From NCBI GenBank assembly GCA_000165345.1, contig CM000430.1, positions 480,001-544,000 on the forward strand: DNA of 64,000 nucleotides, in the 5' to 3' direction. The position numbers and the translations under genes were made by a program. Below are positions 10,790 to 59,194 of this stretch, piece by piece; position 1 is the stretch's first letter, and each line of letters opens with the position of its first letter. Under the pieces are notes generated by a model. The model had not been told where the DNA came from. It worked only from the letters and a program-made list of their open reading frames with translations, and searched no databases.

Positions 10790-12235
10790 CTATAACAATC
10801 CTAATTTATTATTTTTTAATTCACTTAGTATCGACTTGTTCCAGTAAGGCCAATCTTCCAGGACTCTTGCAATATTTAAGTTTGTATTCTTAGCTATCCA
10901 ATCGGGCAAAACTTCGCATTTAAAAATCAAATATTTTTCGGTGGGTACACTAGGCGGTAAAATATATAATAATGAGTGAAGGCATATTCCTATTGGAGGT
11001 TCTACAAAATATTCGACATGTGCAAGTCCATCAGAGGAATCTAATGACATAGAACCACCTCCACCAAAGTACTTTTTTTGTAAAGGGAATTCTAATAGCT
11101 CTTCAACTTCTAGATCTTTTATGTTATATATACATCTAGCTGACAAATTTGAGTCCGTGAACTTAAAACTTGAGGTATTTAATTTAGTTCCTGGTAAAAC
11201 TTTATCACTATAAAGAATATCTCGAACGATAGGAAATCCAATATACTTCAAATGAGCCCTTATTTGATGTGTTCTTCCAGTAATTGGTTTACAAAGCAAA
11301 ATAGAATACTTATCTGTTTCATTTATTTTTTGTTTTTTTGCCTCGTTTATGTCCAAACATGAAATTAGAGGGAAAAAATATGTCAGAGAGTACTTACTAT
11401 TTTCTGAACTGTCGATTCTTGTTATTAATGATTCGCCTTCTCTGTCTTTTAACGTTTTAAGTCCAATCTCGCATTTGATTACATGGCTTGTGATTCCGTG
11501 TGATTCATCCAGAGATAGCTCCCTAATGCTCACGCCTTCAATGCTACTCTGGGAAATATGAGAAATAAAGTTTGAAGTGCTCTCATTTATCATAGCTAAA
11601 TAATATTTATGTGCAAACTGGACTTTTGATGATAAATTTTTAGTTGTTGAAGAATCTTTACTAAGCAATACAAGGCCAGATGTAACTCTATCAAGTCTAT
11701 TTATCGGATGAATATAAGTACTGTTAGTGTTCAATTTTGAAAGATATTCTGATTGAATTAATTTTGTAAGTGAAAGTTTATTGAACCTTCCTTGAGGATG
11801 GCATGGAATGCCACAAGGCTTAAAAACTGCCAATAAGGTAGAAGAATCATACAATATTTTAACTTTATCTATCGCAACAGGAAGTTCTATAAATAGCGAT
11901 CTGTGTTTAATTTTGTCACCATTGCGAACAATATAGTCTAATGAATTAACAGGTGTATCATTAACACTTAGTCTTCTTTGGTCGATTAATCTCAGGTATT
12001 CTTCTATAGGTCTGGTTCTAAACTCGTTCAGAAACAAGTCTCTTAAGGTTCTGTCTCTCCATCTTAATTTACAAAACGATTCGTATTCAAACATATATGG
12101 AGGAACAACAACGACGTAGTCTTCAACTTCTTTATCATTATAATTTTTTTTTATAATTTTTAGTGTTTTTGCATCACTGGACGAGATTTCAACATTCAAT
12201 TCACTATATATTGTAAAGGTGTTATTTGAATTCAT
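10790..12235 (-). CDS. RluA-family pseudouridine synthase
   Basis: 481 aa. Catalytic motif HPINRLDRVTSGLVLLSK (HRLD..TSG in RluA/RsuA enzymes) and the downstream ITGRTHQIRAHLKYIGFPIVRDILY block. N-terminal S4-like region. Confidence 0.85.
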   Translation of the reverse strand: MNSNNTFTIYSELNVEISSSDAKTLKIIKKNYNDKEVEDYVVVVPPYMFEYESFCKLRWRDRTLRDLFLNEFRTRPIEEYLRLIDQRRLSVNDTPVNSLDYIVRNGDKIKHRSLFIELPVAIDKVKILYDSSTLLAVFKPCGIPCHPQGRFNKLSLTKLIQSEYLSKLNTNSTYIHPINRLDRVTSGLVLLSKDSSTTKNLSSKVQFAHKYYLAMINESTSNFISHISQSSIEGVSIRELSLDESHGITSHVIKCEIGLKTLKDREGESLITRIDSSENSKYSLTYFFPLISCLDINEAKKQKINETDKYSILLCKPITGRTHQIRAHLKYIGFPIVRDILYSDKVLPGTKLNTSSFKFTDSNLSARCIYNIKDLEVEELLEFPLQKKYFGGGGSMSLDSSDGLAHVEYFVEPPIGICLHSLLYILPPSVPTEKYLIFKCEVLPDWIAKNTNLNIARVLEDWPYWNKSILSELKNNKLGLL

Positions 12236-12299: not shown

Positions 12300-13303
12300 A
12301 TGGATTCTACAGCTTTAAAAGAAGAGATAATCGCACTCGAAAGTATATTTGGAGAAAGCCTTTACAACTTAGATAAGAGTGGACTCCCTTCCCCCGGTGT
12401 AAATTTTAATGATAAAGAAAGATCCCTTAAGTATTTTGTAAGTTTAAACTCGTAACTTTTTTCAATTTTTTAATATTTCTTCAGTCGGAATATCTTGATG
12501 GGATCTTGGAAATTAAAATTAGCATTCCATTTGGATACCCCTTAGAAGCGTCTTCTTTTTGTATATCTTCATGGTATTTTGACGTTCATTATTTAACAAA
12601 TTCAGAAGAATTACCGCAATCAAAAAATATCTCTCTAACTTCCAATACATTCAAGCAGTTAAAGGAACTAATTGAAACAAGAGTAGAAAGCAAAACCCCA
12701 ATTTTATTTGAGATAATTGACATTTTGATTTCCTGTAATATTGATCACGAGAAATATAAAACAAAATCAAGTATTAAAGAACAAAGAATTGAAACTAACC
12801 ACTTTGATCAATTTGATGGAGATAAAATTTTTGGTGTAACGCATGGCGAACCTATAATTGATCGAAAAAGTGTTTTCCAAGCTCATGCGTGTAAGGTAGA
12901 AACAGTTGAACAAGTTAAAAAAGTTATCAAATGGTTGCTTTCGAACCCAAAGATTGCTAAAGCAACGCACAATATTTGGTCATATAGAATATTCAAGGAG
13001 AAAAATTTCGCAGAAGTAACTGAAGGATCTTTCCCCATTGGGTACGATATCATATCACAAGATCACGACTCGGATGGCGAGAATGCAGCAGGAGGCAGAC
13101 TTCAACATCTTCTTGAAATTACTAATGCAAAGAATGTATTCGTTATGGTGTCTAGATGGTACGGGGGTATTCAACTAGGGCCAGACAGGTTTAAACATAT
13201 TAATAATGCTGCAAGGCTGATCTTAGAAAAATCGGGCTTAATAACTAGATCGGGGACTTTTTATAAACCGCAATCGAATAAAAACAAAAAGAATCAAATT
13301 TAA
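12300..13303 (+). CDS. IMPACT/Yih1 homolog (N-terminal RWD domain + YigZ/UPF0029 domain), 2 exons
   Basis: Exon 1 is 12300..12437 (MDSTALKEEIIALESIFGESLYNL...SLKYF; RWD-like opening). The intron 12438..12484 (47 nt) has a GTAAGT donor and TTTCTTCAG acceptor, phase 0. Exon 2 is 12485..13303 and carries YigZ motifs: GEPIIDRKSVFQAHAC, HNIWSYRI, DDGENAAGGRL, and VSRWYGGIQLGPDRF. The track ORF 12506..13303 is the TTG-initiated remainder of exon 2. Confidence 0.8.
12438..12484 (+). other. spliceosomal intron (47 nt, GTAAGT...CAG) of the IMPACT gene
   Basis: Canonical donor and acceptor. Splicing joins the RWD N-terminus in frame to the YigZ body. Confidence 0.7.
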
Positions 13304-13321: not shown

Positions 13322-13803
13322 TCAATCTTTGGAAACTAAACTGCTGAATATCATATCTGGTACTCCTTTGGAAACAATATATCGATGGTTACATATTGGG
13401 CAGATCAACTCCGCCTCCATAATTTGAAACTATAAAAGTTAAATTGAAAAAAAAAAAATGATTATTAACTTACTCTTAAAATCGCGTCATGTACTGCGCA
13501 TAAAAAAACTTCATCATCAAAATCTTGCTCGGAATAACTCAACGGCAAGCTTAATCCAAATTGAGAAGCACTTTTTACTAGAACACCCCAATCTACCTTT
13601 TTTATTATTTGCTTAATTTGTTCTATATTAAATTCAACATCCAGCATTTTTGTCGATTCCTCAACGCTTCCATTCAAAGAAATTTCCAACGGAAAACCAT
13701 TCCTACATTCAGATCTATTACTTAAGTTATTAAAGATGGATATTTTATATTCATGTAATTATTTGACTTACCAAATTAAAATGTTATGAGTCAACAAACG
13801 CAT
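13322..13803 (-). CDS. TRM112: TRM112 (methyltransferase activator subunit Trm112), 3 exons
   Basis: Exons (minus strand) are 13803..13772 (MRLLTHNILI + TG), 13702..13474, and 13429..13322. The two introns are 13771..13703 (69 nt, GTAAGT..TGTAG) and 13473..13430 (44 nt, GTAAGT..TTATAG). The spliced product MRLLTHNILIWNGFPLEI...VEFNIEQIKQIIKKVDWGVLVKSA...FLCAVHDAILR/FQIMEAELICPICNHRYIVSKGVPDMIF aligns along its length with Trm112 (MKLLTHNLL...GFPL...VEFNPNFV..MIPKVEW..FL.AA...FL..MHHLLLEV..IEGTLQCP.SGR.FPI..GIPNMLL). Track ORF 13465..13689 is exon 2 alone. Confidence 0.75.
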
Positions 13804-14011
13804 TTTACTTTTGATAATCCTGATTTGACTAATCACATCATAGACATATCGACAAAATTTACGTTTTATCACCGCTTCATGGCGGCTTTCTCTTGCATGA
13901 CTTCTCAACTATTCTCTAAATTAGTAGTCATATACCTAAGGAATAATTTTTATAATAATTTATTAAAGAAATATTTTATGACCTGATTGTTGGAATCAAA
14001 TTTTTGCTCTC

Positions 14012-14515
14012 ATGATGGGAAGATTAACTATCGAAATATTTTTATCTATCATAATATTGTTCATTTCTTGCTCCACACAGTTAGAACTTGATATCATGAA
14101 GGATATTGGAACTAATAATAAAGATTTTTTCCAAAAAGAAATATCTCCAGTTGCCATTTCAAGAATTATTGCAATTAAAGATCAATTAAGAATATTTAGT
14201 GGGTCAAATGCTGATACTTCTATAAGAGAGGGTAATTTTATTTCGACTATAATGGCAAACAATTTGAAAGAGTACATAGGATTAGACCACAAGGTAATGT
14301 CAGGGAGTAATAGAGGCGCATTCGTAATATATGATACAAACGACTATCCTTTTGCGTGTAACTGCAACTCGGCGCAATATCAAAACTGGAAAAACGCCAG
14401 TGAAAACCAAAATATAAAAGTAGAATGTACTAACACAATAAATACGGGAATTTTCAATAGCAACGATATTGATTATTGTGATCCTACAAATATTGCAGCA
14501 TCACAAAGTGTCTGA
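14012..14515 (+). CDS. small secreted protein (signal peptide, 8 Cys), orphan
   Basis: 167 aa. N-terminal hydrophobic signal RLTIEIFLSIIILFISCSTQLELD. Mature part is polar with scattered cysteines. Confidence 0.5.
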   Translation: MMGRLTIEIFLSIIILFISCSTQLELDIMKDIGTNNKDFFQKEISPVAISRIIAIKDQLRIFSGSNADTSIREGNFISTIMANNLKEYIGLDHKVMSGSNRGAFVIYDTNDYPFACNCNSAQYQNWKNASENQNIKVECTNTINTGIFNSNDIDYCDPTNIAASQSV

Positions 14516-14608: not shown

Positions 14609-15236
14609 TTACATTATATCGTTATCATTAGTATTGTCTTCCAGTTCATCATAATCTTCATTAGCTCCAGAATTCATATATTCATAATCGATGTCAGACT
14701 CTTGATCATCTTCTAAAATTTCAATGTCTTCATTATAGGTATCTTTATTCTCTTGTACTGTTGTATCTTCGTCATCACCTAAATTCTTATTCTTCAAATT
14801 ACCAAAATTTGCCATACATATGGCTCTCTTCGAAATCCCTAGCCTTCTTTTATTCATATTCAATGAATTGGAAAGGAGATCATGCGCAAAAAATGGGTTT
14901 TCTTTTTGTAAATTCTCAGGTAAATTCAAAAGGGAAAATAAATATTCCTTTAAAATATTCTGATTTTCGTTTGAATGTTCATCCAAATTCTCATTTACTA
15001 TACTGTTTGTGCTCCCAATATTAAACTGCCAAAACTGCATTATGTGTAAATATTCATCTACGCAAAATTTGACCTCGCGTGCCAAATTAATTTCTTTGTC
15101 AACTTCAGATTGATCAGGAAAATATGGATGAATTGGAAACACTCCTTAAAACAAATGCGTAAATTTCTAAAAGCATAGCAAGATTGCTTAACAACTTACC
15201 TTGGGTGTTATTTTGATTAGTAGTTTGTCCACTCAT
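14609..15236 (-). CDS. hypothetical protein with acidic C-terminal tail, 2 exons
   Basis: Exon 1 is 15236..15200 (MSGQTTNQNNTQ + G). The intron 15199..15145 (55 nt) runs from GTAAGT to TTTTAAG, phase 1. Exon 2 is 15144..14609. The track ORF 14609..15142 is GTG-initiated and corresponds to exon 2. A GGCGCC box lies 42 nt upstream of the ATG. Confidence 0.55.
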
Positions 15237-26526: not shown

Positions 26527-27555
26527 ATGCAGATTAATTACCTAATTTTTTCTGTATTTTCTGCGTTACTTCTTGGGTTAAATAGTCCAGTATACGCAAT
26601 AACTACTGAGTCAAATGAATATGTTGCTAACACCAAAAGCAAATCTAGAAATAGACTTAGAAGATTTTTGGATAGTTTAAATAAAGTGGAACTCAAGCTT
26701 CCCAAGATAACCAGAAAAAATGTGATTAGTGAATATACTGTTGAGGATTTAGTCTCAAAGTTGCGAGAAATAGAGAAAACAAGAAGTAACACAAAAAATC
26801 CATTCAAGAAAATAAGATGTCTCATTCAAGAGTCAAATATTAAGAAAAAAATCAGTTCATTACTTAAAGAAAAGAGTGAAGAAGAAAAGTTCGAAAAGTT
26901 TGAAGAAGAATTTCCAATGGATTATTCTCCAAAGGCATTATCTGAAGAGGGGTCTATATCGCCCTATATCCCAGTAGTTGTTGAAGACTACAAGGACGTA
27001 GAAGTTGCGTCAGGAGCATCTATTAGAAATGAGGGAATTCAAGACGAGATTAAATATCTGACATCGGAGGATACTGATCAATCGACTAGTGGAGAGTTGG
27101 ATGATTTGGCACATCCAATTACATCAGAAACTGGCAATGAAAATGAAGGCACTGAAGATTCCGTTACGGAAGACTTTGAAAAAAAGGAAGTTGTAGAAGA
27201 CAATTTGGAAGACTATCAAGCCAAAGATGTGGATGGTGAAAGCCAGTCAAACGAGAATGGGCAGCAAACAGATTCAGATCTGCAAGAAAACGCAGATAGA
27301 GGAGAAAAAGACAACATTCAAAGCAAGGCAAGATTAGCGAACATTTTTAAAAGAAAAAAGTTAACTGCTTCCGAAAAGCTTGAAAGATTAATGTCACTTA
27401 AAAAAGATATTGAAAGCAGGATTTCTAGTTCTAAGAGTAAACTCCTTAGAAGAGTTTTGGAAATGAAACTTAAAAGAGTGAATCACAAGATTTCTAAAAT
27501 AACAGATGCGGCTGTAGATACAGTTACTGAATCAGGCGAGATTGACATCGAATAG
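26527..27555 (+). CDS. secreted acidic low-complexity protein (signal peptide; contains an SKSR tetrapeptide)
   Basis: 342 aa. Signal peptide MQINYLIFSVFSALLLGLNSPVYA. Mature part is Glu/Asp/Ser/Lys-rich and includes ...NTKSKSRNRLRR.... Reminiscent of Cryptosporidium SKSR-type secretory proteins, but the family assignment is uncertain. Confidence 0.6.
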   Translation: MQINYLIFSVFSALLLGLNSPVYAITTESNEYVANTKSKSRNRLRRFLDSLNKVELKLPKITRKNVISEYTVEDLVSKLREIEKTRSNTKNPFKKIRCLIQESNIKKKISSLLKEKSEEEKFEKFEEEFPMDYSPKALSEEGSISPYIPVVVEDYKDVEVASGASIRNEGIQDEIKYLTSEDTDQSTSGELDDLAHPITSETGNENEGTEDSVTEDFEKKEVVEDNLEDYQAKDVDGESQSNENGQQTDSDLQENADRGEKDNIQSKARLANIFKRKKLTASEKLERLMSLKKDIESRISSSKSKLLRRVLEMKLKRVNHKISKITDAAVDTVTESGEIDIE

Positions 27556-27908
27556 GTCCTATCATACATATACACCGCTATTAACTAAAACTGCACGAGG
27601 AAAGTATACTTTATTACATAAATCAACAGTTATAAAAAAAATAAAATCGATTTAGATCTGATTTGAAAATAACTGCCGACAAGTTAAAAACAGGCTTTTA
27701 AGACCTAAAGGATTTAAGACTAAATGAGACATTTAAATGGCAAGATATTTAGGTAATATGATAGAGAAATACACTGCATTTATTCTGTTCTATAGTAAGA
27801 TTCTGGTATTATTAGATTTAAATCTTGCACCACGTCTTGTCTAAGAGATACCTCTATTTTTTTTTTGTACACAAAATATTAAGAGAATTATTTCTTGATT
27901 TATTCACA

Positions 27909-28412
27909 ATGTTTAAACTATTTAGTTGTTTGTGCTGTCAAAATGTTGACTTGAATGAAGAAAGGTAAGTCATATTTGACAGTTTAGATGAATTTATATC
28001 TTTTTTTACAGAATGGACACAAGATTATTCACAAGGTTTCCTTCAACGTATCATCTTAGGACTCTTTTTGACGAATATGTAAGTTTTCCTATTCAACATT
28101 ATATAAAGTAAGTCTAATTATTGGTAGAGCTTAAATGGATCAGATATTTCTGAAGGAAGCGAAGTTGGAGATAATCATGAGTGTCAAAATGAAGATCGTC
28201 TAGAAATGATTGTTGAAGAAGATAATGAATTTTTAGAAGATGGACTTTATGATAGAAATTCTCTAAATGCGAGTAGGAAGGTCACTGAAAAAAGTGAAGT
28301 TGATGTAATGAACATAAACAGCAATAGAAGTTCATTGAACACAAACTCTGGATCTAATACGAATCGATCAAAGCAATCGAAGAGGAATAAAAGGAGGAGC
28401 TACAGGAAGTGA
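27909..28412 (+). CDS. small protein with N-terminal Cys cluster (MFKLFSCLCC) and basic C-terminal tail, 3 exons
   Basis: Exons 27909..27964, 28012..28078, 28128..28412. Introns 27965..28011 (47 nt, GTAAGT..TTTACAG) and 28079..28127 (49 nt, GTAAGT..TTGGTAG). The unspliced frame hits TAA immediately after exon 1. The splice joins the frame to track ORF 28206..28412. C-terminus SKQSKRNKRRSYRK. Confidence 0.5.
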
Positions 28413-28571
28413 ATATCGCTTATCCAAGAGTATGCTGAAGATTTGCAATAAATAAGCGGTTGGCTAATTGCAATGTAAATTTCTTATTATACAGATTAAC
28501 GCGCTTAGAAAGCTGATAAATGTTGTAAATAGTTAGGTTTGTAAAAATAACTAAAAAATATTGACACTGCA

Positions 28572-28877
28572 ATGAACTCAATAAAGTTATTAGTAGAGTC
28601 ATTCATAAGTTCAGGAGATATCTGTGTTATATCGAAGAGTTATTGCCCATACTGCATAAAAGCAATCAATAGCTTGAAAAGCGCTGGATATTCACCTTTG
28701 GTTATGCAAATCGACGGTAGAGTAGATACTAAAGAAATTCAAGATTACTGTAGGGAGCTAACTGGAAGTGGAACTGTCCCAAGAGTATTTGTTAAGGGAA
28801 GGTTTATAGGAGGATGTGATGATACCCTGAAGCTGTTAGAAGACGGCTCATTGAGTAGTTTTGTTGAAACGATCTAG
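28572..28877 (+). CDS. GRX: glutaredoxin (dithiol, CPYC active site)
   Basis: 101 aa. Active site SYCPYCIKA, GSH-binding TVPRVFVKGRFIGGCDD, Trx-fold length. Confidence 0.9.
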   Translation: MNSIKLLVESFISSGDICVISKSYCPYCIKAINSLKSAGYSPLVMQIDGRVDTKEIQDYCRELTGSGTVPRVFVKGRFIGGCDDTLKLLEDGSLSSFVETI

Positions 28878-29048
28878 GCACCTTAATTTGTTTTTTTCTT
28901 CATACTTGTAACAGTATTTTTGCTCAATTGCGAATTGTGCGTTGTATAGCAAAAATGTCTAATTAATACAAATTTAACTTTTGTTTATTTCTATCCATCC
29001 CACTACCAAGATATTTGCAAGATCAAGGAGCCGCGCATTCACTGTGGG

Positions 29049-29055
29049 GCATGCA
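29049..29055. promoter_or_regulatory. GCATGCA box about 215 bp upstream of the 1869-aa gene
   Basis: GGGGCATGCAATTCGG, in the GC-richer island GGAGCCGCGCATTC. Confidence 0.35.
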
Positions 29056-29270
29056 ATTCGGATATGCTTAATGGCGAATAATTTGAGGATTTCTTTAAGA
29101 CGTATATATTCTTTATTTTTATTACATTGTAAAGGGTGTTATATTTCTCTAAAAACGCACATTAATTACATGCACATTACAAATTAAGTCTGCGAAGCTT
29201 TAATTTTTTGCGATTAAGAAGATCTCCAATTGTGGTCTAACTACAGTAATAAATTTTGCAGATTTAACGA

Positions 29271-40248: not shown

Positions 40249-43200
40249 ATGAAGTTTAAATGCAAAAAAGATTACTTAAGTATAATATTTTTATGGATTT
40301 GTTTTTTTAGTAGAAATGAAATATTTGTCAGAAGTAATAATTATTACCTTGGGGAAAACTACGATAGCCCATTCACAAAAGATGAGCCGAATCCACTAAT
40401 AAATCATTTAAATTATGTTCCATTTTATGGAATGACAGGAATAAGCCCAGGTTACGAAAATCCAGCAATGATCCCAATGGATCCTAATCAATTTAACCAG
40501 CCAGTAACAAGTTTAGGAAAACAACTTGCAAGTGAGCTTAAAAGTATTCAATTAGGAAACGGGCATTTAGTTCCAGATATAAATGTTAATTTAGAATCTA
40601 GAGCAAGTTTAGGGCAAGATATTTTAAAGGTTAAAAAAATTAATCCAAAAAAAAAGATAAAATCAAAATCGAAATCTGAAACATCTGAAAGGAAACCCTT
40701 AATTAATTCTTCCTCATTAATTTCATATAGAGAATATTTCCTGCCAGTTCCGGAAGAAGTTGGGAAAGGAGTTAAATTGAATGAAAGTTGCCTATTTTCT
40801 CCGACTCCAATGAAAATCTCCAAAAAAGATTCCTATTGGAGGAAAACAGACGACTCAAAAGCGGTTAATCGTTTTGAAGTTAGTAGCCCAGTTTTCACTG
40901 ACGAGAATCCATTCAGAACATCATCTGAATGTTTAAATTTATTTGATGAGGCTTTTAATGCTTATAGAAAAAAAGAATTATTAATTTCACCGGAGAGGTT
41001 TGTGAGTTTGACAAGACAAGTTGCAATGCAGCTACGAGATTCTCTACTAAACTTCAAATATGTGGTATCCACAGAAGATTCATGTTTAGCAATGAGAATG
41101 ATGCTTTTTTTGCCGCATCAACTGAGAAATACCCTGAATTGCAAGTCTGCAATTATAGCTTCATTAAGGGATCCAGAGGAAATAACTAATTTCGAATTGC
41201 TAGACCAGCTTGATGAAAATACAGAGTCCAAATTCAAAGATATTTCATTTGTTTGTAAAAATACATTTAAATTCAACGAACCAAATAGCAGTTTAATTAG
41301 TACACAAATTTTTAAGCCTAGTGAAATGGCAAAATTTTTCAGACTAGATTTAACTGTAAAGAACCTACAGTTTTTTCATAGACTTTCAATTCCGCATAGA
41401 AAAGCAGCTCTCAAGGTTCAAGAAAGTTATCAAAAACATACGAAAGATATTCTGCTTTATGATATTGCGGCATCGATCATTTTTCTTTTAAATGAGTTGC
41501 ATGCGACTGACCAGTCAATAGAGCAATGTAGCGTTATTGTATTTGCATGTGTTTCCATGCAAAATGGTGAGACTTCCAACTTAAATCAAATGACTGCAGA
41601 GCAAATATGCAAGGAACTTGGAATAGAATTGATTTTGAAAAAACATAATGTCAAGTATAGTAGTTTGATTTTTTTTCAACTATTGAAAAAACAAACTCAC
41701 GATAAGTCAATTTTCGGACGGGTGTCAACCTCATCATATACTCTTCCTTCTGGAAAAATATTTTTACCATATTCTAAGTATGGATATCCAAAAATTAGTT
41801 CAAACTTAGAAATTTGGGCATCCGTAGGCAAGGTATTTTCGGATGGGACAGTCAGTAGTTTTATTATTCCAGCATGTACAGGCCTCCCTGCATCTGAGTT
41901 TAATAGATTTATATTCTTGAATACCATGATTGAAAGATACTTAACTATTTCTGGGCTTGGCCAATTTAAGTTAACTGTGGAAGACATCTGTATGATTGCG
42001 AAATATTATCTTGCATACAAAAAACATCTTAGGAATGAGATGGGAAATCAAATTTCAACTGAAGACACAATCCCATTAGCCATTTTTAAAGTTGCTCAAA
42101 GATTAAACTTAGATATATTTACTATTTCAGCATGCAGAGAGATATATAGAGAGTTTTCTGAAGAAGAAGAAGCAATGTTGAAGAAGACAGTAGGAAATAG
42201 AAAGGAAGATAAATTAGAAAGTATCTATTCAAAACCACCTTTCAGTTATAATTCAAACATTATTTTAAGGCATCAACCAAAAATTAATGAAAAACAATAT
42301 GCCAATACTTGGTGTTTATTCCAAAAAGACGATGCTTGCTCACATTTGAAGCACTTTGTTTTGAACAGAATGGTACTTTTTGTAGCATATGTTCTTGAAT
42401 TTTGGAGGAAGAGCAGAACTTCCGAAAAAATGCCATTTAAAAGTATTACTGAGATTTGTATTGGTTTCTCTGGTGATTATTTAAATTTTAGACCTAAAGC
42501 TAGCGATTTCAAACTGTTCACAGAAGATTGGTTATTTCAAAAAGATGAACAAACTCTTTATTCGAACACTCTAGATTTACTTTGGAATAACTTTTTGATT
42601 TTTGAAAATTCTGCGTTCCCAAAAAATTCTGAAGAAACTGAATCAGATTATTTACAAAGGATCTATAATAATGCACTTGTTCCCGAGCCATTGTTTGTTC
42701 ATGACTGGAAAAATATTGAGCTTCCTATTAGAATGGATATTGCTGAGTTCACAAAACTTTTGCCACATGTACAAAAATCGGTAGAAATATTCTCTACTCT
42801 TGATGATATAACACTTAATCATGTAACATTAGTCAGAGCATTTTTGGAATCTTTTTTTGAAGAAACTTACCAATTTCCTGTAATAATTTCTGAGAAAGAT
42901 ATACTTTTATTACTTGAACGCCGTGAACTTGAGAAGAAGCCTTTGGATGAGTTATTTTTCGAAATTATGTCGTCCAAAAGTGACTGGTCATGGATTAAGC
43001 ATGAAACTTCATCCCATGCAATCTTAAGGCTTCTCGAATACTTAAAAACAGTAAAGAAGAGTGTGGAGGAGAGTATTAAAAGAACTCCAACAAAGAGTGA
43101 TATTTATTCTGCGCCTAGGGCAGTGCTTGCTCACGGAAAATGGTTAATAAAAGCACCTTATCCTGTATTTTATCCATCAACCCCTTTACAAAAGAGGGCT

Positions 43201-46200
43201 TTACATGGCCTCCCCAAATTCCTAATAAATAAGGCCCGTTATATTCAGGCATATTTTATTAATGCTTTTGACAGAGTTCTTCAATTTGATCTTTCACTCC
43301 GCCTTGCAGATATTGTTTATTCACTCACAAACTGCGCAGGAGATGACAAAAAATTAGTAGAATTGCTTAGAGAACGAATTTCTATTCAAAATGGTCAGGA
43401 CTTCGTTAATGACAATGTAGTAAGCGAGATTTATAATTCTTGCATGTCCTTCAGTTTTTATAAGTATCTCCTAAAAGGTGCATTATCAGAAGAACAAGCA
43501 TTTGCAGCGCCGAGAGTGTTTTACAAACCTAAATTTGGGTGGAGATTCTTTCCTCCAAATGTACCAGACTTTTCAAGGCTTTTGGTGTTGAGTAAAGCTT
43601 TCAAAGTTGAAAGTGGAAATAATGAATTTGATCGAGATCCACATAAATTATTAGATGAAACAAATTCTAATGAAATAGTTGTTAGACCATATACATGGAA
43701 AACTTTAAAAGGGATTTATGAACAGAAAAAACTGGAAATTTGGCAACTTAATAGGGCAATATCTATGTGCGCATATTTTAATCATTGGATTTCATATAAA
43801 TTCTCAACAAAGAATTCGAGAGATCTTCAAGTATCAAATTGTATAAATGCAATATATCGTTTGAAAAGCATAAATAAGAGTCAATCACAATCAGAAATAT
43901 CGCAAGTTTTTTTAAGGTACTTAGGAGTACCTTTTATTAAGGAAAATGATTTTAATGAGATGCTTTCAGCATTCACTTCATTCGAATGCGTGGGTAAACC
44001 GAACAGTATGAGCACTAGACAATGGCTAATGAACTTATATAGGATTCCTCAAATTCAAGAAAATAATAAAAATTCTCTTTCAGAAGAATTTGAATCACTA
44101 AGATTTCACATACCACCTGTCTTTGGTGAGCAAAAAACTATTTTTGAGCATGGACAGCCCCAGATCACCAGTATTAATGCGGATATTCCGGAAATATATA
44201 TTCCAATGGATCTAGATTCTGATTCGCTTAATAATTTGAGGGAGTTATTTGAAAAGTTTACTTATCGTTATTTAAGTAGGGTTGGGATAATGGTTGAAAC
44301 TGAACTTGAAGCTCTAAACTTTTCAATGGTAGATGTGTTTAAGATTGCAAGAGATAGAAAATTATCATTTTCTGAGGCACTACAGCAACATGTTTCTGAT
44401 ATTGGGGGTAATATTCAAAAGAATGTTTTTAAGAAACTCTCAGCAGCATTCTTTAGATTTATTCTTTTAAAGTTTGCAAGTAGCAACGAAGAACCATTTG
44501 TACAGATACTGAGACGAATTTCCATAAGTAGAGTAATTACTGATGTAGGAAAGCTCCCATTTGATATTCCCTTGGGTATAGTTTCGGGGAAACTCGATCT
44601 AGATCTTCCATACAATTCCCACTCTTTTGGAGAAGTAAATTTTGCAAGATTGGTAGTTGCATATATGAATGAATATTTGATAGAACTTTTTGATCTTAGA
44701 AATAAAATTTTATCCGATGGAACCGTCGAAAAAAATGTTCTTAAAGAATTTCCAGGGTTTGTTAAAGAGAATTGTGTTGCAAAAAGTATGGATGTCATTA
44801 GAAAAGGGGGGATTGATCTTCAGAATGCATTAGATCAGTCTTGTTCATCCGAATTATCTTGGATGAGTATGAAAGTTCTGAGAATGTTGGTATCTGGGCT
44901 AATGACGTACTGTAAACTTAATTTTAGAGGATTTCCAATTGAGAAAAATGGAAGAAGCATTTTAGATTTTTCCAGGGAAAATTTAAATTCCCCTATAGTA
45001 TTGTTTGACAAATACTTCAAAACTTGGACAATGCAAAATGCAAGGAAAAATACAAGAGAAGGCGAAGATTTTGGGTCTAAATTTTCTACATTGGAATCCA
45101 TAGGGATTGTGGATCAAATGACAGGAACAATTATTTCCTCAAATTTCAATTTCTGTAGTGAAATGAATACATCCCAGATAAATAGACTACTGATTAAGCT
45201 TCAATATTACAAACATTGTATTTCTGAGAATGCAATTTCAAATATTGAAGTTGATCGACTATTGGATTTGAATATTTGGTGTCTTGCTTTACGACAAAAA
45301 GTACCAGATATGAAAAAAACATATTCGAATATGTTGTTCACTTATTTTGGAATTCGCGGAGCAGTTAAAGAGAGTTTCGAGATTCTTGAGGACTCATTTG
45401 AATTTGTAGAAGAATCTTTGTTAGGAAAAAACTCTTTGGTATCTATTAGGCAGTGGGCCCAAGATTTTTATTCGTCACATTCTAAACCATTTTCTCAATT
45501 TAACTCACTTGTAAAATCTGATAAGTTATTTTGTCCAAGAGTAATTACTGAAGATGAATTGCACCAATTTCAAATTGTTCAGAAAGATAACATATTTAAT
45601 CGTGTAGAAGCATTTCAAGGATTTTCAGAGATTTTCTTAAGAGAGAAATATGGAATAATTTTTGAATCAAGACCAATAATTGCAGCGCTTTTAGTAGATG
45701 GATTCTCCATTATTAAACCATCCAACTCTAATATAGCATTAATAAGGTCTATGATACCTATTGCGTCTGAAGAAATTGTAAATTCATTAATTGGAGCATT
45801 TAATTCTTTCGAAGCAAATTTATTAAAAGGTGGTTTGACTTCTCTACAAGATTTGTATAAAAATCCAATTTGTGAACGTTCTCAAGGAAATTGGCATTTT
45901 CATGTTGAATTGGAAACAATAAACAGGGCTGATGTGCTAATAAATTCAAAGTTAATCTTTTCCGAATTAGAAATTAACAGATTTCAAAATATTGTAGCTT
46001 TTTTGAATACTGCTTTGAATTTTAAGTATTCAGAAAAAATGTTGGGATCTTATATTTCGTTTAAACATATTGCTACATTATTTAAGGCAGAAATAGACCT
46101 TTCTTCTTTTGCACATATTATTAATTATTTCCATAGAACTTTGCAGGATGATTTAAGTTTTTCACCTTGGCTTACCGTGAAGGCACTAAAAGGTATTTTC

Positions 46201-47208
46201 CAGTCCTTCATTTCTTGGGAAAGGATTGAAATCTTCAAAGTCTCGCCAACGCACTCAAAAAATTTTGGATTAGTGGTTTCTAGTGCTGATATGGCTAAGT
46301 ACAACAATTCTCCAGTGGGATTGATCAATGGAAAATGGCATTGGTATACTTGGTGTAAAAGGCCAGACTTTAATTTAATACATCGTGAAGTTTTAGGAGA
46401 CGAAGTTGTACATGTTTTGACACCCCAAGAAAGAAGTTTATATGGGATTCCCAGAATTAAACATAAATTTGAGATTGCTACTTTATTTATTCAATATTTT
46501 CTACAAGATGTATTGAATATTCTTATACCATTTAAACCGGATGTTACAATGAAGATATTTAAGGGGGAAACAAACTTATCACCTGATTCAGTTGAGTTTT
46601 TAAGAAAAATATGGGAACATTATAAAAACTCTTTTATTTATAAAGGTTCCTTACCTAAGCACGATTTATTCCACAACCCAATAATCAATGTTGTAAATAA
46701 ACAAAGATTCTTCCCAGCTGCTGCAATTCCTCGATTTGATAATTTTGATACAACTCTTATTCCACCTTCCCTAATAGAAATAGAAAATCTCTATCCTGGA
46801 ATTGTTCTTGGTTCAAAGTTTGAAATAAACAGACTGATTACTATTTGCGCATTCATAAATCTAAGCTTTGAAATTTTTATTGATGATTCAACAGAAAAAG
46901 ATGATATTATTACGCCAATAGGTTTATATGATATATTAAAGGACAAGATGAATATTTTAATTATTGAAAAACAAGACGAAATTACAGGTTTGTTTAGGCA
47001 ATGGCAATTTTATTCAGGTAGTCAAGAAAAAGCATCGCATTTAAAGATTACATTACTTAATTATAATAATTTTGAAAAGTCTATGTTGGACAGAGGATGG
47101 GATTTTTCGAAATTATATCGAAAACCTATAGTTTTTTCAGTCCAAAATGGTTATAAGATGAACTTTAATTTGAAAAGTTATATACCTAAAGTTAAGAACA
47201 GAATGTAA
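40249..47208 (+). CDS. giant orphan protein (2319 aa) with N-terminal hydrophobic signal/anchor
   Basis: Uninterrupted 7.0-kb ORF. N-terminus MKFKCKKDYLSIIFLWICFFSRNEIF. No recognisable catalytic motif; helical-rich. Confidence 0.8.
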   Translation: MKFKCKKDYLSIIFLWICFFSRNEIFVRSNNYYLGENYDSPFTKDEPNPLINHLNYVPFYGMTGISPGYENPAMIPMDPNQFNQPVTSLGKQLASELKSIQLGNGHLVPDINVNLESRASLGQDILKVKKINPKKKIKSKSKSETSERKPLINSSSLISYREYFLPVPEEVGKGVKLNESCLFSPTPMKISKKDSYWRKTDDSKAVNRFEVSSPVFTDENPFRTSSECLNLFDEAFNAYRKKELLISPERFVSLTRQVAMQLRDSLLNFKYVVSTEDSCLAMRMMLFLPHQLRNTLNCKSAIIASLRDPEEITNFELLDQLDENTESKFKDISFVCKNTFKFNEPNSSLISTQIFKPSEMAKFFRLDLTVKNLQFFHRLSIPHRKAALKVQESYQKHTKDILLYDIAASIIFLLNELHATDQSIEQCSVIVFACVSMQNGETSNLNQMTAEQICKELGIELILKKHNVKYSSLIFFQLLKKQTHDKSIFGRVSTSSYTLPSGKIFLPYSKYGYPKISSNLEIWASVGKVFSDGTVSSFIIPACTGLPASEFNRFIFLNTMIERYLTISGLGQFKLTVEDICMIAKYYLAYKKHLRNEMGNQISTEDTIPLAIFKVAQRLNLDIFTISACREIYREFSEEEEAMLKKTVGNRKEDKLESIYSKPPFSYNSNIILRHQPKINEKQYANTWCLFQKDDACSHLKHFVLNRMVLFVAYVLEFWRKSRTSEKMPFKSITEICIGFSGDYLNFRPKASDFKLFTEDWLFQKDEQTLYSNTLDLLWNNFLIFENSAFPKNSEETESDYLQRIYNNALVPEPLFVHDWKNIELPIRMDIAEFTKLLPHVQKSVEIFSTLDDITLNHVTLVRAFLESFFEETYQFPVIISEKDILLLLERRELEKKPLDELFFEIMSSKSDWSWIKHETSSHAILRLLEYLKTVKKSVEESIKRTPTKSDIYSAPRAVLAHGKWLIKAPYPVFYPSTPLQKRALHGLPKFLINKARYIQAYFINAFDRVLQFDLSLRLADIVYSLTNCAGDDKKLVELLRERISIQNGQDFVNDNVVSEIYNSCMSFSFYKYLLKGALSEEQAFAAPRVFYKPKFGWRFFPPNVPDFSRLLVLSKAFKVESGNNEFDRDPHKLLDETNSNEIVVRPYTWKTLKGIYEQKKLEIWQLNRAISMCAYFNHWISYKFSTKNSRDLQVSNCINAIYRLKSINKSQSQSEISQVFLRYLGVPFIKENDFNEMLSAFTSFECVGKPNSMSTRQWLMNLYRIPQIQENNKNSLSEEFESLRFHIPPVFGEQKTIFEHGQPQITSINADIPEIYIPMDLDSDSLNNLRELFEKFTYRYLSRVGIMVETELEALNFSMVDVFKIARDRKLSFSEALQQHVSDIGGNIQKNVFKKLSAAFFRFILLKFASSNEEPFVQILRRISISRVITDVGKLPFDIPLGIVSGKLDLDLPYNSHSFGEVNFARLVVAYMNEYLIELFDLRNKILSDGTVEKNVLKEFPGFVKENCVAKSMDVIRKGGIDLQNALDQSCSSELSWMSMKVLRMLVSGLMTYCKLNFRGFPIEKNGRSILDFSRENLNSPIVLFDKYFKTWTMQNARKNTREGEDFGSKFSTLESIGIVDQMTGTIISSNFNFCSEMNTSQINRLLIKLQYYKHCISENAISNIEVDRLLDLNIWCLALRQKVPDMKKTYSNMLFTYFGIRGAVKESFEILEDSFEFVEESLLGKNSLVSIRQWAQDFYSSHSKPFSQFNSLVKSDKLFCPRVITEDELHQFQIVQKDNIFNRVEAFQGFSEIFLREKYGIIFESRPIIAALLVDGFSIIKPSNSNIALIRSMIPIASEEIVNSLIGAFNSFEANLLKGGLTSLQDLYKNPICERSQGNWHFHVELETINRADVLINSKLIFSELEINRFQNIVAFLNTALNFKYSEKMLGSYISFKHIATLFKAEIDLSSFAHIINYFHRTLQDDLSFSPWLTVKALKGIFQSFISWERIEIFKVSPTHSKNFGLVVSSADMAKYNNSPVGLINGKWHWYTWCKRPDFNLIHREVLGDEVVHVLTPQERSLYGIPRIKHKFEIATLFIQYFLQDVLNILIPFKPDVTMKIFKGETNLSPDSVEFLRKIWEHYKNSFIYKGSLPKHDLFHNPIINVVNKQRFFPAAAIPRFDNFDTTLIPPSLIEIENLYPGIVLGSKFEINRLITICAFINLSFEIFIDDSTEKDDIITPIGLYDILKDKMNILIIEKQDEITGLFRQWQFYSGSQEKASHLKITLLNYNNFEKSMLDRGWDFSKLYRKPIVFSVQNGYKMNFNLKSYIPKVKNRM

Positions 47209-47434
47209 ATCAACTATAAAACCTTATAAATTTTTTCTCATTGTTTTTTTTTTATCTTAATTTTTTTTTTCGGGGTTGTTCATTTGTTATTTTAGTAATT
47301 TTTTGACCCACTTATTGATAATTTATTTGAAGATACATTTTAGTTATTAAATTCAATAATTTCTGAAATTGAGATAAGAATTGAATAAATATCTTAATAG
47401 CCTGGAATGTAAATTTTTTAGGGAAATGGAAGAT

Positions 47435-48618
47435 TTATTCCACATTAATGCCTGATAATTTTTCCAATTTGTTTCTCAATGAAATTTGATTTGATTTTTT
47501 GATATTTTTTTCCCATTCCTCCCAATTTTTATTTTTTGGGGTGTTTGATTCATCTAAAATTGCAGAATTATTATCCATATAATTAAAATCCGTGGGGGCA
47601 TTCAAAAAAGATTCATTTGTAAACTGAATCATCTAATTTGATTAATAATATGTAAATTAAAAAATACTTTGTGATTAAACTTACCGAAACATTTATATCA
47701 GTATGATTCGTAGTAAGTCCTAAATATTGTTCTCTAGTACTAAAAATTTTTCTAGTTGCATTGACCAAATTTTCTGGATTTCTAGGGATTTCCCAAAGCC
47801 CATAATGTTGGAGATTTATCAAATTTTGTCTCATTCTGGCATAATTCCTTCTTTTTAGAGATAACAAAGGATATTTATCCATAATTGCTAGATAAATCTA
47901 ATGCAATAGTTAAATTAAAAATTATAAATAAATTTACACTTACATCATACGAAAACTTTGCTTCACTAGAATTGGACGTTTTGTTCATATTAATTTCAAA
48001 ATCAACAATTTCAGAACTTTCTGATTCAGTAGTTATTTCAGATGATTCATTAAATTTTCCAAATACCCCAGTTTCATTTTTTATTTTAACAAGTTCATCT
48101 TCACTTAATTCAAATTGGGTACAGCATTTGCAATTCTTTTTAGAATGATTTTTTTTGAATCTTGGAAACGTAAGGCACAAATCATTTGGGGAAAGATTTG
48201 GACAAGAAATAAAAGCACTTGAGTGTAGTTCAAAGCAGGAGGAATTGCAATTTTTTGGGCAAGAATGATTACATAAATTAGAATATGTGCAGGAACTTCC
48301 TTTACACCCTGAACAGGGGCTCAAGTTGTTCGAATAATTACAATTCGGCATGTCCAAATGCTTTCTTTTACTGTAACTTGATTGTTTTGTTGCACAATAA
48401 CATTTTTTTGAACAGCAAGCAATTTTACAGGTTTTTTCTTGATCATATGGTCCAACTGTGATTTTATTTCTATATGGGTTTACAAACCTTCGATGGACTC
48501 CAACCTGCATAAAACAAGAGATATGTTGATTTTCTCTTAAATTTACATAGGGAAAACTCTGAAAGATGTCAATATAAAAGAGAATTATACTTATAAAATT
48601 TTTTATTTTATGTATCAT
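47435..48618 (-). CDS. cysteine-rich protein, 3 exons (merges three separate track ORFs)
   Basis: Exons are 48618..47944 (Cys-rich: ...CKIACCSKKCYCATK...CSGCKGSSCTYSNLCNHSCPKNCNSSCF...KNCKCC...), 47897..47685, and 47632..47435. The two introns are 47943..47898 (46 nt, GAT|GTAAGT..CATTAG) and 47684..47633 (52 nt, TCG|GTAAGT..AATTAG). Both are phase 0. They join track ORFs 47875..48618, 47613..47882 and 47435..47632 in one frame. Exon 1 begins with a signal-like hydrophobic segment MIHKIKNFISIILFYIDIF. Confidence 0.6.
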
Positions 48619-48823
48619 TTTTTATTTTCTTCAAATATTAAATCTAAATGCATGAACAATAGGCGCCTCTTTAAACAAAATCTTTAATATTGTAAATACA
48701 ATATTACTTAGTGTCAATCTGGTACATTAATACAAATAACAGTATAGAAAAATGAATTATATATTTATAATTATGCTATCTATAGGTTGAGACTAATACG
48801 GTCATTTGTTTGATAAATACCTT

Positions 48824-51800
48824 TTAAATGATTATTATAGTCGAGTTTTGAGAATAATTTCCTTGGTTAAACCCATCGTGAACTATGCTAGATCCTTCAA
48901 TATCAACATTATACTCCTTTGATCTAAGACTTATTGTGCCAAGAACGCCTTCTTGCCTAAGGGTTAGTTGGGTAACAACATCATAATTGGAATAATTTTT
49001 TAAGGGGAACTGACGCTTCCCTACAGTAACTCTATCTGGATAAATGGTAATTATTTCATTAGAAATAATATCAAATACTTGGTTATTATAGTAGAATTTA
49101 CCATTATTAACTTTGTATATAATACCATTAATGTTAACTTCTTGTATTGATCCTGGATTGTGAGATAACTTTACTACAACTTCTGTGAGAGAGGACTGAT
49201 AAGTTGTAATTAATCCGTATTCTCCAATAGAATTACAGCTACAAACTATTTTTCCCTGTTTGAATTTAGTTTCACAGCCATTTTGATACCAAGAACCATC
49301 TTTTCCCTTATATGTGCATTGGTAGCTTAAACGCTTACCCAAAACAACACTAGGAGTGTATTCTGGGCTAACAATAAAACTGATTTTGTTCTCAATCCCG
49401 TAAAGACGATATTCATAGCCGCATTTAGATATAAATACGTCATACACTTTTTGAAATACTCCATTAAAGCTTTTATCTTGCTGAATTTTATTGGCTAATT
49501 CAAAAAGATAATTATACAATGGAGGTTTAATAATAGTAAGGCCATATCTAGGATCATGGCAGTTAACGAATAAATTTCTTCCCCAAAATTCTTGGTAGTC
49601 AACATTCTCATGATGTAACTTAAAGTATATGTTCTTTATCAACGAAATATCAATATTTTCAAGTTTTTCATTACTAAGGTCAAGAGTAGGAATAACTAGT
49701 TCATTTCCAATAGCTGCACCGCTATGTAAATCTAAATTAGAAAATATTGAACTTTGAATTGATAATTTTGTCATTTTCCCCTTAATTTCTATCTGGCTAC
49801 CAAAGTCATTATTCATTGCCCATTGGTTAACTGAAAATGCTCCGAACAAATTAGTATCAGCTTCAATATTATTAAGTAGTCTTAATTCAACCAAGAAATC
49901 TAAAATATCTACAATAAGATTTTTAAAACCTTCAAAATATCCACATTCAGCCTTTAGTGCAATTCTAAATAACCTTTCAGGGTCAAACGAATGATCTGGT
50001 AATGTTTTATCAAAATTCATATAGCTAAATTCAAATAATCTCCAAAAAATGTATAGAATCATTGCTGAATTTCCTCCTGTTGTATCTTTATTATTAGGAT
50101 CTATTTCAATTAGTTTCTCTTGAAATTTTTTAATCTGATCTATCGTTAGGAAATCTAATTTCGCGGATAAGATCGATGCAATCATAAGTCTATCATTTAA
50201 AGTGCCAATTTTTTGATAGTTCAAAAAATATTCTAATAAATTAGAGTACTCTTCTTTAAGTTCATCTTCTTTCAGAAAAGCTTGCCCTACTTCCAAGATT
50301 TTCTTTGACTTTTGAAAAACGAAATAATTGCATTTTGAACTTGAGTTTTTTACGCAAAACATATTTCTTAAGTGTTTGTCAATCGCATCATTACTGAATT
50401 CTGAACAGTCTATCCCACAAAGTAACTCATTATCTTGGTTATGAATAATTAGATGTATTTTCCAAGATTCATAATTTGTGGGTAATCTTAAATATTGTGG
50501 AATATTTGATGTTAAAAAGGATAGTAGTAGCGCATTACTTTTGAATTTGTTATTTTGCTCATTATCTAAGCCATTTTCACTAACTGTTGCCAGTATTGAA
50601 TATTTCCAATTACTCATCCCAGCCAAGTTTGAAATCTTAAAGTTAATGGGAATTATTTCTCTAGGTCCTTTATTCTCAGTTGTCCCTTTAATTTTTATTA
50701 ACGAAAAATCGTGTTCAAAGAATAGATCCTCCCATACGTATGACACATAATCTCCAGAAGAAGCTAGATTATGAATATTGCTTCTTTTTACAATAATGTT
50801 CAATTTATTTTGATTTATTATTTCGTTAGAATTTTGCTTTATAACTAAAAGTATAACAGAAAGCCTGCCATCTCTTGGGTTGACATCGGTTTCAGTAATA
50901 TTTAATTTAATTGAAACAGCTATTAGATCATTTTGAATTGCTTGATCTTTTAAATTGTAAACACTGGGAGTAGTTTTTAATTGAACATATCCTGTGTTTT
51001 CAAAATAAGCGAAGGAAAGGAATTTAAGTCCTTGTACATTATCCCATTCATTCCCTCCAATGAATTTTATCTTTGCCAAGAGCAAACTCTCAGAGGCTTT
51101 AGAAATTATACTTGGAATCTTGTGCGGAATAATTTGTAGTGGTAATTCTTTATTAACCATAGAAAGATAGAAGTGCTTACACTCTATTGCATCTATAATT
51201 TTACTCTTTATTCCCACTGCAATGACCATATGGGTTAAACTTTCTTGTGGTATTAGACTAAGCTCAGTGTGGGTGGCATTACCTGAAAGTGTCGCATTTG
51301 ACTGTTGAAATGAACATGCTTGACCCCAATAGGATCCATCTGTTCTACATGCTGCTAATAGCCCTGTTGTAAGATCCTCAATTTGATTTTCATCTGAAGT
51401 TGCAGAGCAGTAGTATCGGATTTCTTGATCTTGAAATTGGAAATCAGCCTGATAACTTCTTGAAGCTCTACAAGAGGAACAACCCGTTTTGATAGAATCA
51501 CAATATCCACTCTGAGAAACAATCTGGTCGATAGTTTTAGAAGTACCAGTTTCAATTGTTATTTTTGGATGATTTTTTGAAACTATCGATGAAAAATAAG
51601 CATTAATACTTGGTTGGATTGTTTCGTTATGAAAAATTACCTTATCTTTCGAAGAAGCAAATGAGTTTTTAGTGGATACTTTGGTAACATTTATCATTGA
51701 TATTGGTTGTTCTAAGATATTTATGTCTAAGTTTTTTCTTGAAGTAGATTTTATGCAATCAAATGACCCACCTTTAATATATTCTTCATTCGTAATTGAA

Positions 51801-59186: not shown

Positions 59187-59194
59187 TGCATGCA
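59187..59194. promoter_or_regulatory. TGCATGCA box abutting the start codon of the 59194 gene
   Basis: CTTTGCATGCATGGCGC. Full 8-mer palindrome. Confidence 0.4.

What the first reader, a model, noticed from the sequence alone, without database searches (positions are those of the whole stretch)
13322..13803. TRM112 recovered as a three-exon gene; the track shows only a 74-aa fragment
Splicing two GTAAGT introns (69 and 44 nt) yields a protein with the Trm112 N-terminus (MRLLTHNILIW/NGFPL vs MKLLTHNLL...GFPL) and the Trm112 C-terminal strand (ICPICNHRYIVSKGVPDMIF vs CPESGRMFPISRGIPNMLL). The 12-codon first exon and the terminal exon are invisible to ORF-based calling. A plus-strand spurious ORF (13786..13986) overlaps exon 1.
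Basis: partly seen in the sequence, partly recalled or inferred. Interest (0 to 1): 0.55.

Follow-up and report, generated by a model that had tools for sequence, protein, structure and literature searches.

The report
Cryptosporidium TRM112 gene, one splice misplaced

Summary
The window is Cryptosporidium parvum chromosome 2; two stretches around the gene (8.5 kb and 3.5 kb) are 100% identical to two public assemblies. On the minus strand, 13803..13322 holds a real three-exon TRM112 orthologue.

One detail is wrong. Intron 1 is 51 nt (13771..13721, acceptor AAG), not 69 nt. The product is therefore 128 aa, not 122. The correction restores the N-terminal CX4C motif, which with the C-terminal CX2C forms the four-cysteine zinc knuckle of non-metazoan Trm112.

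- The 51-nt acceptor AG is conserved in five Cryptosporidium genomes.
- With the corrected model, Pfam PF03966 rises from 23.3 to 32.4 bits and covers profile positions 2-40 of 40 instead of 17-40.
- The exact 128-aa protein is already in GenBank and UniProt (QOY42989.1, "Trm112p-like protein"), from an annotation whose introns are stated to be RNA-seq supported. The 122-aa product is in no database searched.

Verdict: a real feature, already known, low interest.

The parts
13772..13803 (-). TRM112 exon 1 (32 nt): ATG + MRLLTHNILI + first 2 nt (TG) of codon 11
   Evidence: Sequence. It is the first in-frame ATG of the upstream open frame. Identical N-terminus MRLLTHN in C. muris, C. ubiquitum, C. 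tyzzeri, the SRR18693150 (Logan) contig L005 and the ENA contig L006. Aligns to residue 1 of human TRMT112 and, in the 128-aa model, of yeast Trm112.
13721..13771 (-).
   Evidence: Enumeration of open splice models. 13721 is the first AG after the donor hexamer. The AG is conserved in all 5 species, while intron length varies 51/117/51/58/58 nt. It matches the deposited gene models. GC 0.20 against 0.34 for the CDS.
13703..13720 (-).
Evidence: Gap-free in all 5 species. The Cys codons are conserved (CNRSEC / CNRKCC / CNKPEC / CNKSEC). Present in deposited proteins P0001, P0003, P0007, P0008, P0010 and P0011.
13474..13720 (-). TRM112 exon 2 (247 nt): rest of the zinc-knuckle N-terminal part plus the central helical domain
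   Evidence: The mechanical 74-aa ORF 13465..13689 lies inside it and runs 9 nt into intron 2.
13430..13473 (-). Intron 2, 44 nt, GTAAGT...TTATAG
   Evidence: Donor GTA[AT]GT and acceptor YAG|TTYCAAAT are conserved in 5 species with lengths 44/60/43/42/42. Consistent with annotated gene spans.
13322..13429 (-). TRM112 exon 3 (108 nt including the TGA stop): FQIMEAELICPICNHRYIVSKGVPDMIFSSLVSKD, with the CX2C and the C-terminal beta strands
13786..13986 (+). 66-aa antisense ORF in the divergent promoter region, overlapping exon 1 by 18 nt: spurious
   Evidence: No Pfam hit. The frame is interrupted in C. ubiquitum, the SRR18693150 species and C. muris. Not a called gene in any of the annotated loci.

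Best explanation
Window 13803..13322 (minus strand) is the single-copy Cryptosporidium parvum orthologue of TRM112/TRMT112. It has three exons (13803-13772, 13720-13474, 13429-13322) separated by introns of 51 and 44 nt, and encodes a 128-aa protein.

Shown here: the N- and C-terminal ends carry the CX4C (C11, C16) and CX2C (C103, C106) motifs that ligate zinc in fungal and microsporidian Trm112, and a central helical insert lies between them.

Inferred from the family: the two ends fold together into a four-cysteine zinc knuckle. Like Trm112 elsewhere, the protein would act as an obligatory, non-catalytic partner. It would pair its last beta strand with strand beta-3 of class I methyltransferases (Bud23, Trm9, Trm11, Mtq2/HemK2 type) and cover their hydrophobic surface. 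This stabilises and activates enzymes that methylate 18S rRNA, tRNA and the release factor eRF1.
For: - Splice model. It is the only donor/acceptor pair that gives an open frame with the N-terminal cysteines. The acceptor at 13721 is the first AG after the donor. The acceptor AG, both donors and the intron-2 acceptor are conserved in five Cryptosporidium genomes. Intron lengths differ by non-multiples of 3, and every exon, including the disputed 18 nt, is gap-free.
- Homology. Pfam PF03966 scores 32.4 bits (cut-off 22) over residues 3-115, profile 2-40/40. phmmer against PDB gives human TRMT112 E 2.8e-13 (1-123 to 1-120), yeast Trm112 E 8e-12 (1-121 to 1-130), and Yarrowia and other Trm112 chains.
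- Zinc ligands. They fit the CX3-4C + CX2C rule stated in the Trm112 review PMC5372719.
- Deposited annotation. The exact 128-aa sequence is QOY42989.1 / UniRef100_A0A7S7LIJ8, 'Trm112p-like protein'. It lies on CP044421.1 of GCA_015245375.1, with a 482-nt CDS span identical to the window. The paper on that assembly states that its introns are 100% supported by RNA-seq (PMC8744675).
- Synteny. Peptidase_M24 / ... / Trm112 / Impact / PseudoU_synth_2 / RINGv / P4-ATPase is kept in C. muris.
- Pathway plausibility. C. parvum ALKBH8 hydroxylates mcm5U in vitro (PMC4051686). mcm5U is the product of a Trm9-type enzyme, which works with Trm112 in yeast and mammals.
Against: - No RNA-seq junction reads or cDNA could be examined here. 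A search of metagenome contigs for either spliced junction found nothing.
- The acceptor in C. parvum and C. tyzzeri is AAG, a weaker acceptor than the YAG of the other species.
- The AlphaFold model from a 5-sequence alignment is mediocre (pLDDT 70.5). Its top three Foldseek hits are all TRMT112, but with TM about 0.4 and rmsd 10-11 A, so the fold is not independently confirmed.
- No partner methyltransferase of C. parvum was identified here, and none lies in the window. Zinc binding and partner binding are inferred from the family, not shown.
Confidence: 0.95

Rival explanations
1. One reading: intron 1 is 69 nt (13771..13703, acceptor TGTAG), giving a 122-aa Trm112 with Trp11 and no N-terminal cysteine pair, like zinc-free metazoan TRMT112.
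For: The frame is open and the acceptor is a canonical TAG. The product still hits human TRMT112 (E 2.3e-11) and just passes Pfam (23.3 against 22 bits). Metazoan Trm112 lacks the zinc cysteines (PMC5372719).
Against: The TAG is not conserved: it is TAA in C. muris and C. ubiquitum, where this splice is impossible. It is the third AG downstream of the donor. The alignment to human TRMT112 shows a 7-residue gap exactly at the junction. Pfam covers only profile positions 17-40. The C-terminal CX2C is kept, which makes loss of its two partner cysteines unlikely. The 122-aa sequence is absent from a 15-billion-protein collection, while the 128-aa one is present from several independent annotations.
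Confidence: 0.02
2. Both acceptors are used. The AAG at 13721 gives the main 128-aa form. The in-frame TAG at 13703 gives a minor 122-aa isoform without the N-terminal zinc ligands, specific to the C. parvum / C. tyzzeri lineage.
For: The two acceptors are 18 nt apart and in frame, and the upstream one is a weak AAG in C. parvum and C. tyzzeri. The CpIA paper mentions a few putative alternative splicing events in the genome.
Against: There is no evidence for it in any database entry. The downstream AG is absent in two of the five species compared (C. muris, C. ubiquitum), so any such isoform would be lineage-specific and probably splicing noise.
Confidence: 0.03
3. There is no gene: the similarity is chance in AT-rich DNA, and the ORF fragments are spurious.
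For: Each exon is short, and only the middle one is visible as an ORF.
Against: E-values of 1e-13 against PDB and 9e-8 against Pfam. Orthologues at the syntenic position in five species have purifying, gap-free exons and indel-rich introns.
Confidence: 0

Closest known systems
C. parvum IOWA-ATCC Trm112p-like protein QOY42989.1 (UniRef100_A0A7S7LIJ8; also KAL5370037.1, CPHLJ_2g2440)
   Same: Identical 128-aa sequence and an identical 482-nt genomic CDS span. The 3,482-nt locus has zero differences from the window.
   Different: Nothing. It is the same gene.
Saccharomyces cerevisiae Trm112 (PDB 2J6A, 4QTT/4QTU) and Yarrowia lipolytica Trm112 (5CM2)
   Same: Full-length alignment (E 8e-12 and 4e-9). 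Same two-part zinc-knuckle signature, CX4C + CX2C, at equivalent columns. Same central helical insert.
   Different: About 33% identity. The Cryptosporidium protein is shorter (128 against 135 aa), with a shorter loop after the first cysteine pair and a shorter helical-domain loop.
Human TRMT112 (PDB 6G4W, 6H2V, 6KMR, 6PED and others)
   Same: Best sequence match (E 2.8e-13, 1-123 to 1-120). Conserved M(K/R)LLTHN start, GFPL, and the G(I/V)P(N/D)M(L/I) C-terminal strand.
   Different: Human TRMT112 has lost all four zinc cysteines (PMC5372719). The Cryptosporidium protein keeps them.
Bacterial/archaeal short Trm112 (UPF0434 / YcaR, PDB 2JS4)
   Same: A weak hit to the C-terminal zinc-knuckle half (E 0.26).
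   Different: These lack the central helical domain. The window protein has the eukaryotic architecture.

Membership tests
Trm112 / TRMT112 (Pfam PF03966, eukaryotic type) | Significant match to the family profile above the curated threshold, covering both the N-terminal and C-terminal halves of the split zinc-knuckle domain | tested here: met
128-aa model: 32.4 bits against a cut-off of 22, residues 3-115, profile 2-40/40.
Trm112 / TRMT112 (Pfam PF03966, eukaryotic type) | End-to-end homology to experimentally characterised Trm112 proteins of known structure | tested here: met
   Human TRMT112 E 2.8e-13 (1-123 to 1-120), yeast Trm112 E 8e-12 (1-121 to 1-130), Y. lipolytica E 3.6e-9.
Trm112 / TRMT112 (Pfam PF03966, eukaryotic type) | Zinc ligand motifs CX3-4C (N-terminal) and CX2C (C-terminal), as in fungal and microsporidian members; absent in metazoa, so not obligatory for membership | tested here: met
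   C11-NRSE-C16 and C103-PI-C106, aligned with the yeast cysteine columns. Rule taken from PMC5372719. Conserved in the four full-length relatives aligned (C. muris, C. meleagridis, chipmunk genotype I, ENA contig P0006) and in the C. tyzzeri, C. ubiquitum and SRR18693150 re-translations. Actual zinc binding was not tested.
Trm112 / TRMT112 (Pfam PF03966, eukaryotic type) | Two-domain fold: zinc knuckle formed by both termini plus a central helical domain | tested here: inconclusive
   AF2 model with pLDDT 70.5. Predicted strands are at both ends and four helices lie at 43-91. The Foldseek top three hits are all TRMT112 (E 2e-4 to 1e-3, prob 1.00), but TM is about 0.4 and rmsd 10-11 A. The shallow alignment limits the model.
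Trm112 / TRMT112 (Pfam PF03966, eukaryotic type) | Forms heterodimers with, and activates, class I methyltransferases (Bud23, Trm9, Trm11, Mtq2) through a beta-zipper | not testable with these tools
   Needs co-expression or pull-down. The only indirect hint is that C. parvum ALKBH8 acts on mcm5U, the Trm9 product (PMC4051686).
Trm112 / TRMT112 (Pfam PF03966, eukaryotic type) | Orthology: single syntenic locus conserved across the genus | tested here: met
   Same neighbours (167-aa gene, Impact_N, PseudoU_synth_2, RINGv, P4-ATPase) in C. parvum and C. muris, and partly in C. tyzzeri, C. ubiquitum and the SRR18693150 contig.

The most novel reading that the evidence does not exclude
In the C. 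parvum / C. tyzzeri lineage, the weak AAG acceptor of intron 1 and the in-frame TAG 18 nt downstream are both used. A minor 122-aa Trm112 isoform lacking the two N-terminal zinc ligands would then be made beside the 128-aa form. Such an isoform might be unstable, or might differ in which methyltransferase partners it supports.
Probability: 0.03. Interest if true: 0.25.

Novelty: already known. Interest (0 to 1): 0.08.

Why it matters
It matters little for discovery. The gene, its three exons and its product are already in GenBank and UniProt for C. parvum and several sister species, and Trm112 biology is well described.

The practical value is methodological. A plausible in-frame TAG acceptor misled a by-eye splice call and silently removed two functional residues. 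The gap at the junction in the homologue alignment, and cross-species conservation of the acceptor, expose such errors without RNA-seq.

There is also a small curation point. The C. tyzzeri (93 aa), C. ubiquitum (88 aa), Iowa II (130 aa partial), GCA_035232765.1 (141 aa partial) and C. hominis (157 aa partial) entries for this gene are truncated or mis-started. All could be corrected to the 128-aa model.

Tried and rejected
It gives an open frame but was rejected: the acceptor is not conserved, there is a gap at the junction, and Pfam coverage is partial.
- Other donor/acceptor combinations. Seven keep the frame open. Only 13771/13721 keeps both MRLLTHNILI and the cysteine pair.
- Upstream extension of the CDS, as in the 'partial' 141-aa and 157-aa entries. 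There is no in-frame ATG upstream within the open frame, the upstream DNA is poorly conserved (54-67% with indels), and all characterised homologues start at the equivalent Met. Rejected.
- Direct junction evidence. An exact search of JGI metagenome contigs for either spliced exon1-exon2 junction found nothing. An exact-protein look-up returned only genomic contigs, no transcript contigs. The supplementary tables of the re-annotation paper are not held.
- Structure. The AlphaFold2 model from a 5-sequence alignment gave only a mediocre model, so the fold comparison is weak support at best.
- Partner methyltransferase in the window. Pfam scans of 20 of the larger ORFs found none.
- Plus-strand 66-aa ORF as a real gene. 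Rejected.

Full report
**What is in the sequence**

On the minus strand an ATG at 13803 opens ATG CGT TTG TTG ACT CAT AAC ATT TTA ATT TG, followed directly by GTAAGT at 13771. A second GTAAGT at 13473 starts a 44-nt T-rich stretch ending TTATAG at 13430. The frame closes at TGA, ending at 13322.

The mechanical ORF list shows only a 74-aa ORF (13465..13689, -) in the middle, a 32-aa ORF at the 3' end, and a 66-aa plus-strand ORF (13786..13986) that overlaps the first exon by 18 nt.

**Where the window comes from**

A search with the 122-aa product found only Cryptosporidium proteins. An 8.5-kb stretch of the window around the gene is 100% identical to CP141119.1 of C. parvum assembly GCA_035232765.1. 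A 3.5-kb stretch is 100% identical to CP044421.1 of GCA_015245375.1, the IOWA-ATCC assembly (assembly identity from PMC8744675). The deposited locus tag CPHLJ_2g2440 and the ~992-kb contig indicate chromosome 2 of C. parvum. Window GC is 30.5%.

The deposited C. parvum, C. hominis, C. meleagridis, chipmunk-genotype and C. muris proteins read ...MRLLTHNILICNRSECRNGFPL... (C. muris...ILMCNRKCCKNGFPL...).

I enumerated every GT/AG pair that keeps the frame open. With the donor at 13771, the acceptor AAG ending at 13721 gives a 51-nt intron and a 128-aa product with exactly this sequence.

**Comparative test of the splice sites**

This test stands in for RNA-seq, which I could not examine. I fetched the orthologous loci of four relatives:

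- C. muris (L002)
- C. tyzzeri (L003)
- C. ubiquitum (L004)
- an unnamed Cryptosporidium from run SRR18693150 (L005)

I aligned them with the window. The findings were:

- The AG of the 51-nt model is present in all five (CTTAAG, TTTCAG, CTTAAG, TTATAG, TTTTAG).
- Applying one splice rule to all five loci gives complete 128-135-aa orthologues.
- Intron 1 lengths are 51/117/51/58/58 nt and intron 2 lengths are 44/60/43/42/42 nt.
- All indels fall in introns and flanks. Exon 1, the disputed 18 nt, the rest of exon 2 and exon 3 have no gaps in any species.
- The C. muris intron total (177 nt) equals its annotated span minus its CDS. The C. parvum total (95 nt) equals 482 - 387 in IOWA-ATCC.

The IOWA-ATCC re-annotation paper states that its introns are 100% supported by RNA-seq (PMC8744675). 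This is indirect support, and I could not inspect this gene's reads.

**Homology**

|---|---|---|
| Pfam PF03966 score (cut-off 22) | 23.3 bits | 32.4 bits |
| Pfam coverage | residues 65-109, profile 17-40 of 40 | residues 3-115, profile 2-40/40 |
| Human TRMT112 (PDB) | E 2.3e-11, 7-residue gap at the exon 1/2 junction | E 2.8e-13, 1-123 to 1-120 |
| Yeast Trm112 (PDB) | residues 14-115 only | E 8e-12, full length 1-121 to 1-130 |

In a multiple alignment, C11, C16, C103 and C106 fall in the columns of the four yeast cysteines. The Trm112 review states that fungal and E. cuniculi Trm112 bind one zinc through CX3-4C and CX2C motifs, and that metazoan proteins have lost them (PMC5372719). The Cryptosporidium protein therefore belongs to the zinc-binding type.

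**Structure**

An AlphaFold2 model from a 5-sequence alignment reached only pLDDT 70.5. It places strands at both termini and four helices between residues 43 and 91. Foldseek against the PDB puts three TRMT112 chains on top (E 2e-4 to 1e-3, probability 1.00), and nothing else reaches even E 0.1. However, TM is about 0.4 and rmsd 10-11 A. I count this as weak, not independent, support.

**Prior knowledge**

The exact 128-aa sequence is in NCBI and UniProt (QOY42989.1, KAL5370037.1, UniRef100_A0A7S7LIJ8, "Trm112p-like protein"). The gene is therefore already known.

Several deposited entries are truncated or mis-started:

| Entry | Length | Problem |
|---|---|---|
| C. parvum Iowa II (XP_001388221.1) | 130 aa, partial | reads through the 3' part of intron 1 and lacks exon 1 |
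| C. tyzzeri | 93 aa | starts at an internal Met |
| C. ubiquitum | 88 aa | starts at an internal Met and uses a wrong intron-2 acceptor |
| GCA_035232765.1 | 141 aa, partial | extended upstream of the true ATG |
| C. hominis | 157 aa, partial | extended upstream of the true ATG |

**Mechanism**

Shown here: gene structure, orthology, family membership by sequence, and presence of the zinc-ligand motifs.

Inferred from established knowledge of the family (PMC5372719): the two termini form a zinc knuckle. The protein's last strand forms a main-chain beta-zipper with strand beta-3 of class I methyltransferases (Bud23, Trm9, Trm11, Mtq2) and buries their hydrophobic surface, which stabilises and activates them.

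That at least the Trm9 branch operates in C. parvum is suggested by the demonstrated mcm5U hydroxylase activity of C. parvum ALKBH8 (PMC4051686). No partner was identified here, and none lies in the window.

**The plus-strand ORF 13786..13986**

It has no Pfam hit. It is open only in C. parvum and the nearly identical C. tyzzeri, and is broken in the three more distant genomes. It lies in the 208-nt region between the divergently transcribed TRM112 and the 167-aa gene at 14012..14515.

**Verdict**

The feature is real and correctly identified as TRM112 with three exons. Intron 1 must be corrected to 51 nt (13771..13721) and the product to 128 aa. The gene is already annotated and of low interest. 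The only non-excluded novelty is minor use of the downstream in-frame acceptor, at about 3%.

Noticed in passing
window 12300..13303 (+), intron 12438..12484: The neighbouring IMPACT/YIH1-family gene (Pfam UPF0029/Impact_N; annotated as 318 aa) also has a short GTAAGT...CAG intron of 47 nt. The ORF list shows only its second exon (265 aa from a TTG). It converges on TRM112, and the two stop codons (13303 and 13322) are separated by only 18 nt, so the 3' UTRs must overlap on opposite strands.
   Followed up: partly
L003 (C. tyzzeri PYHZ01000002.1), L004 (C. ubiquitum LRBP01000027.1), Iowa II XP_001388221.1, WRK31033.1, CUV04600.1: Public TRM112 gene models in sister species and older C. parvum annotations are truncated or mis-started (93, 88, 130, 141 and 157 aa). 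The same three-exon rule gives a complete 128-aa orthologue in C. tyzzeri and C. ubiquitum. The C. ubiquitum model also skips 'FQIMEA' through a wrong intron-2 acceptor.
   Followed up: yes
L006 (ENA ERZ12420515, NODE_16171, 595 bp): A 125-aa Trm112 that is 44% identical, with the same MRLLTHN...CNRKQC start, is encoded colinearly without introns on a short low-coverage contig. It is either an assembled transcript or a related apicomplexan without these introns. Its C-terminus (GIWSYETCLSG) diverges from the GxPNM motif.
   Followed up: no
L005 (Logan SRR18693150 contig 28633, 29 kb): An unnamed Cryptosporidium genome close to C. ubiquitum carries the syntenic TRM112-Impact-PseudoU synthase block. 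Its TRM112 has GTATGT as the intron-2 donor and a 132-aa product.
   Followed up: partly
window 14609..15236 (-): The annotated 190-aa gene of unknown function (no Pfam) spans 628 nt, which implies a ~55-nt intron. Together with TRM112 and IMPACT, that makes three intron-containing genes within 3 kb in a genome where introns are scarce.
   Followed up: no
window 26527..63834: Ten large ORFs in the right half of the window (up to 2319 aa, e.g. 40249..47208 + and 29271..34880 +) have no Pfam match at E<=0.001. The 2621-aa ORF 48824..56689 (-) was not scanned.
   Followed up: no
window 10790..12235 (-), 12300..13303 (+), 13322..13803 (-): Three translation-related genes lie side by side: a pseudouridine synthase (PseudoU_synth_2), an IMPACT-family protein and TRM112. 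The order is conserved in C. muris. This may be no more than conserved synteny in a compact genome.
   Followed up: partly
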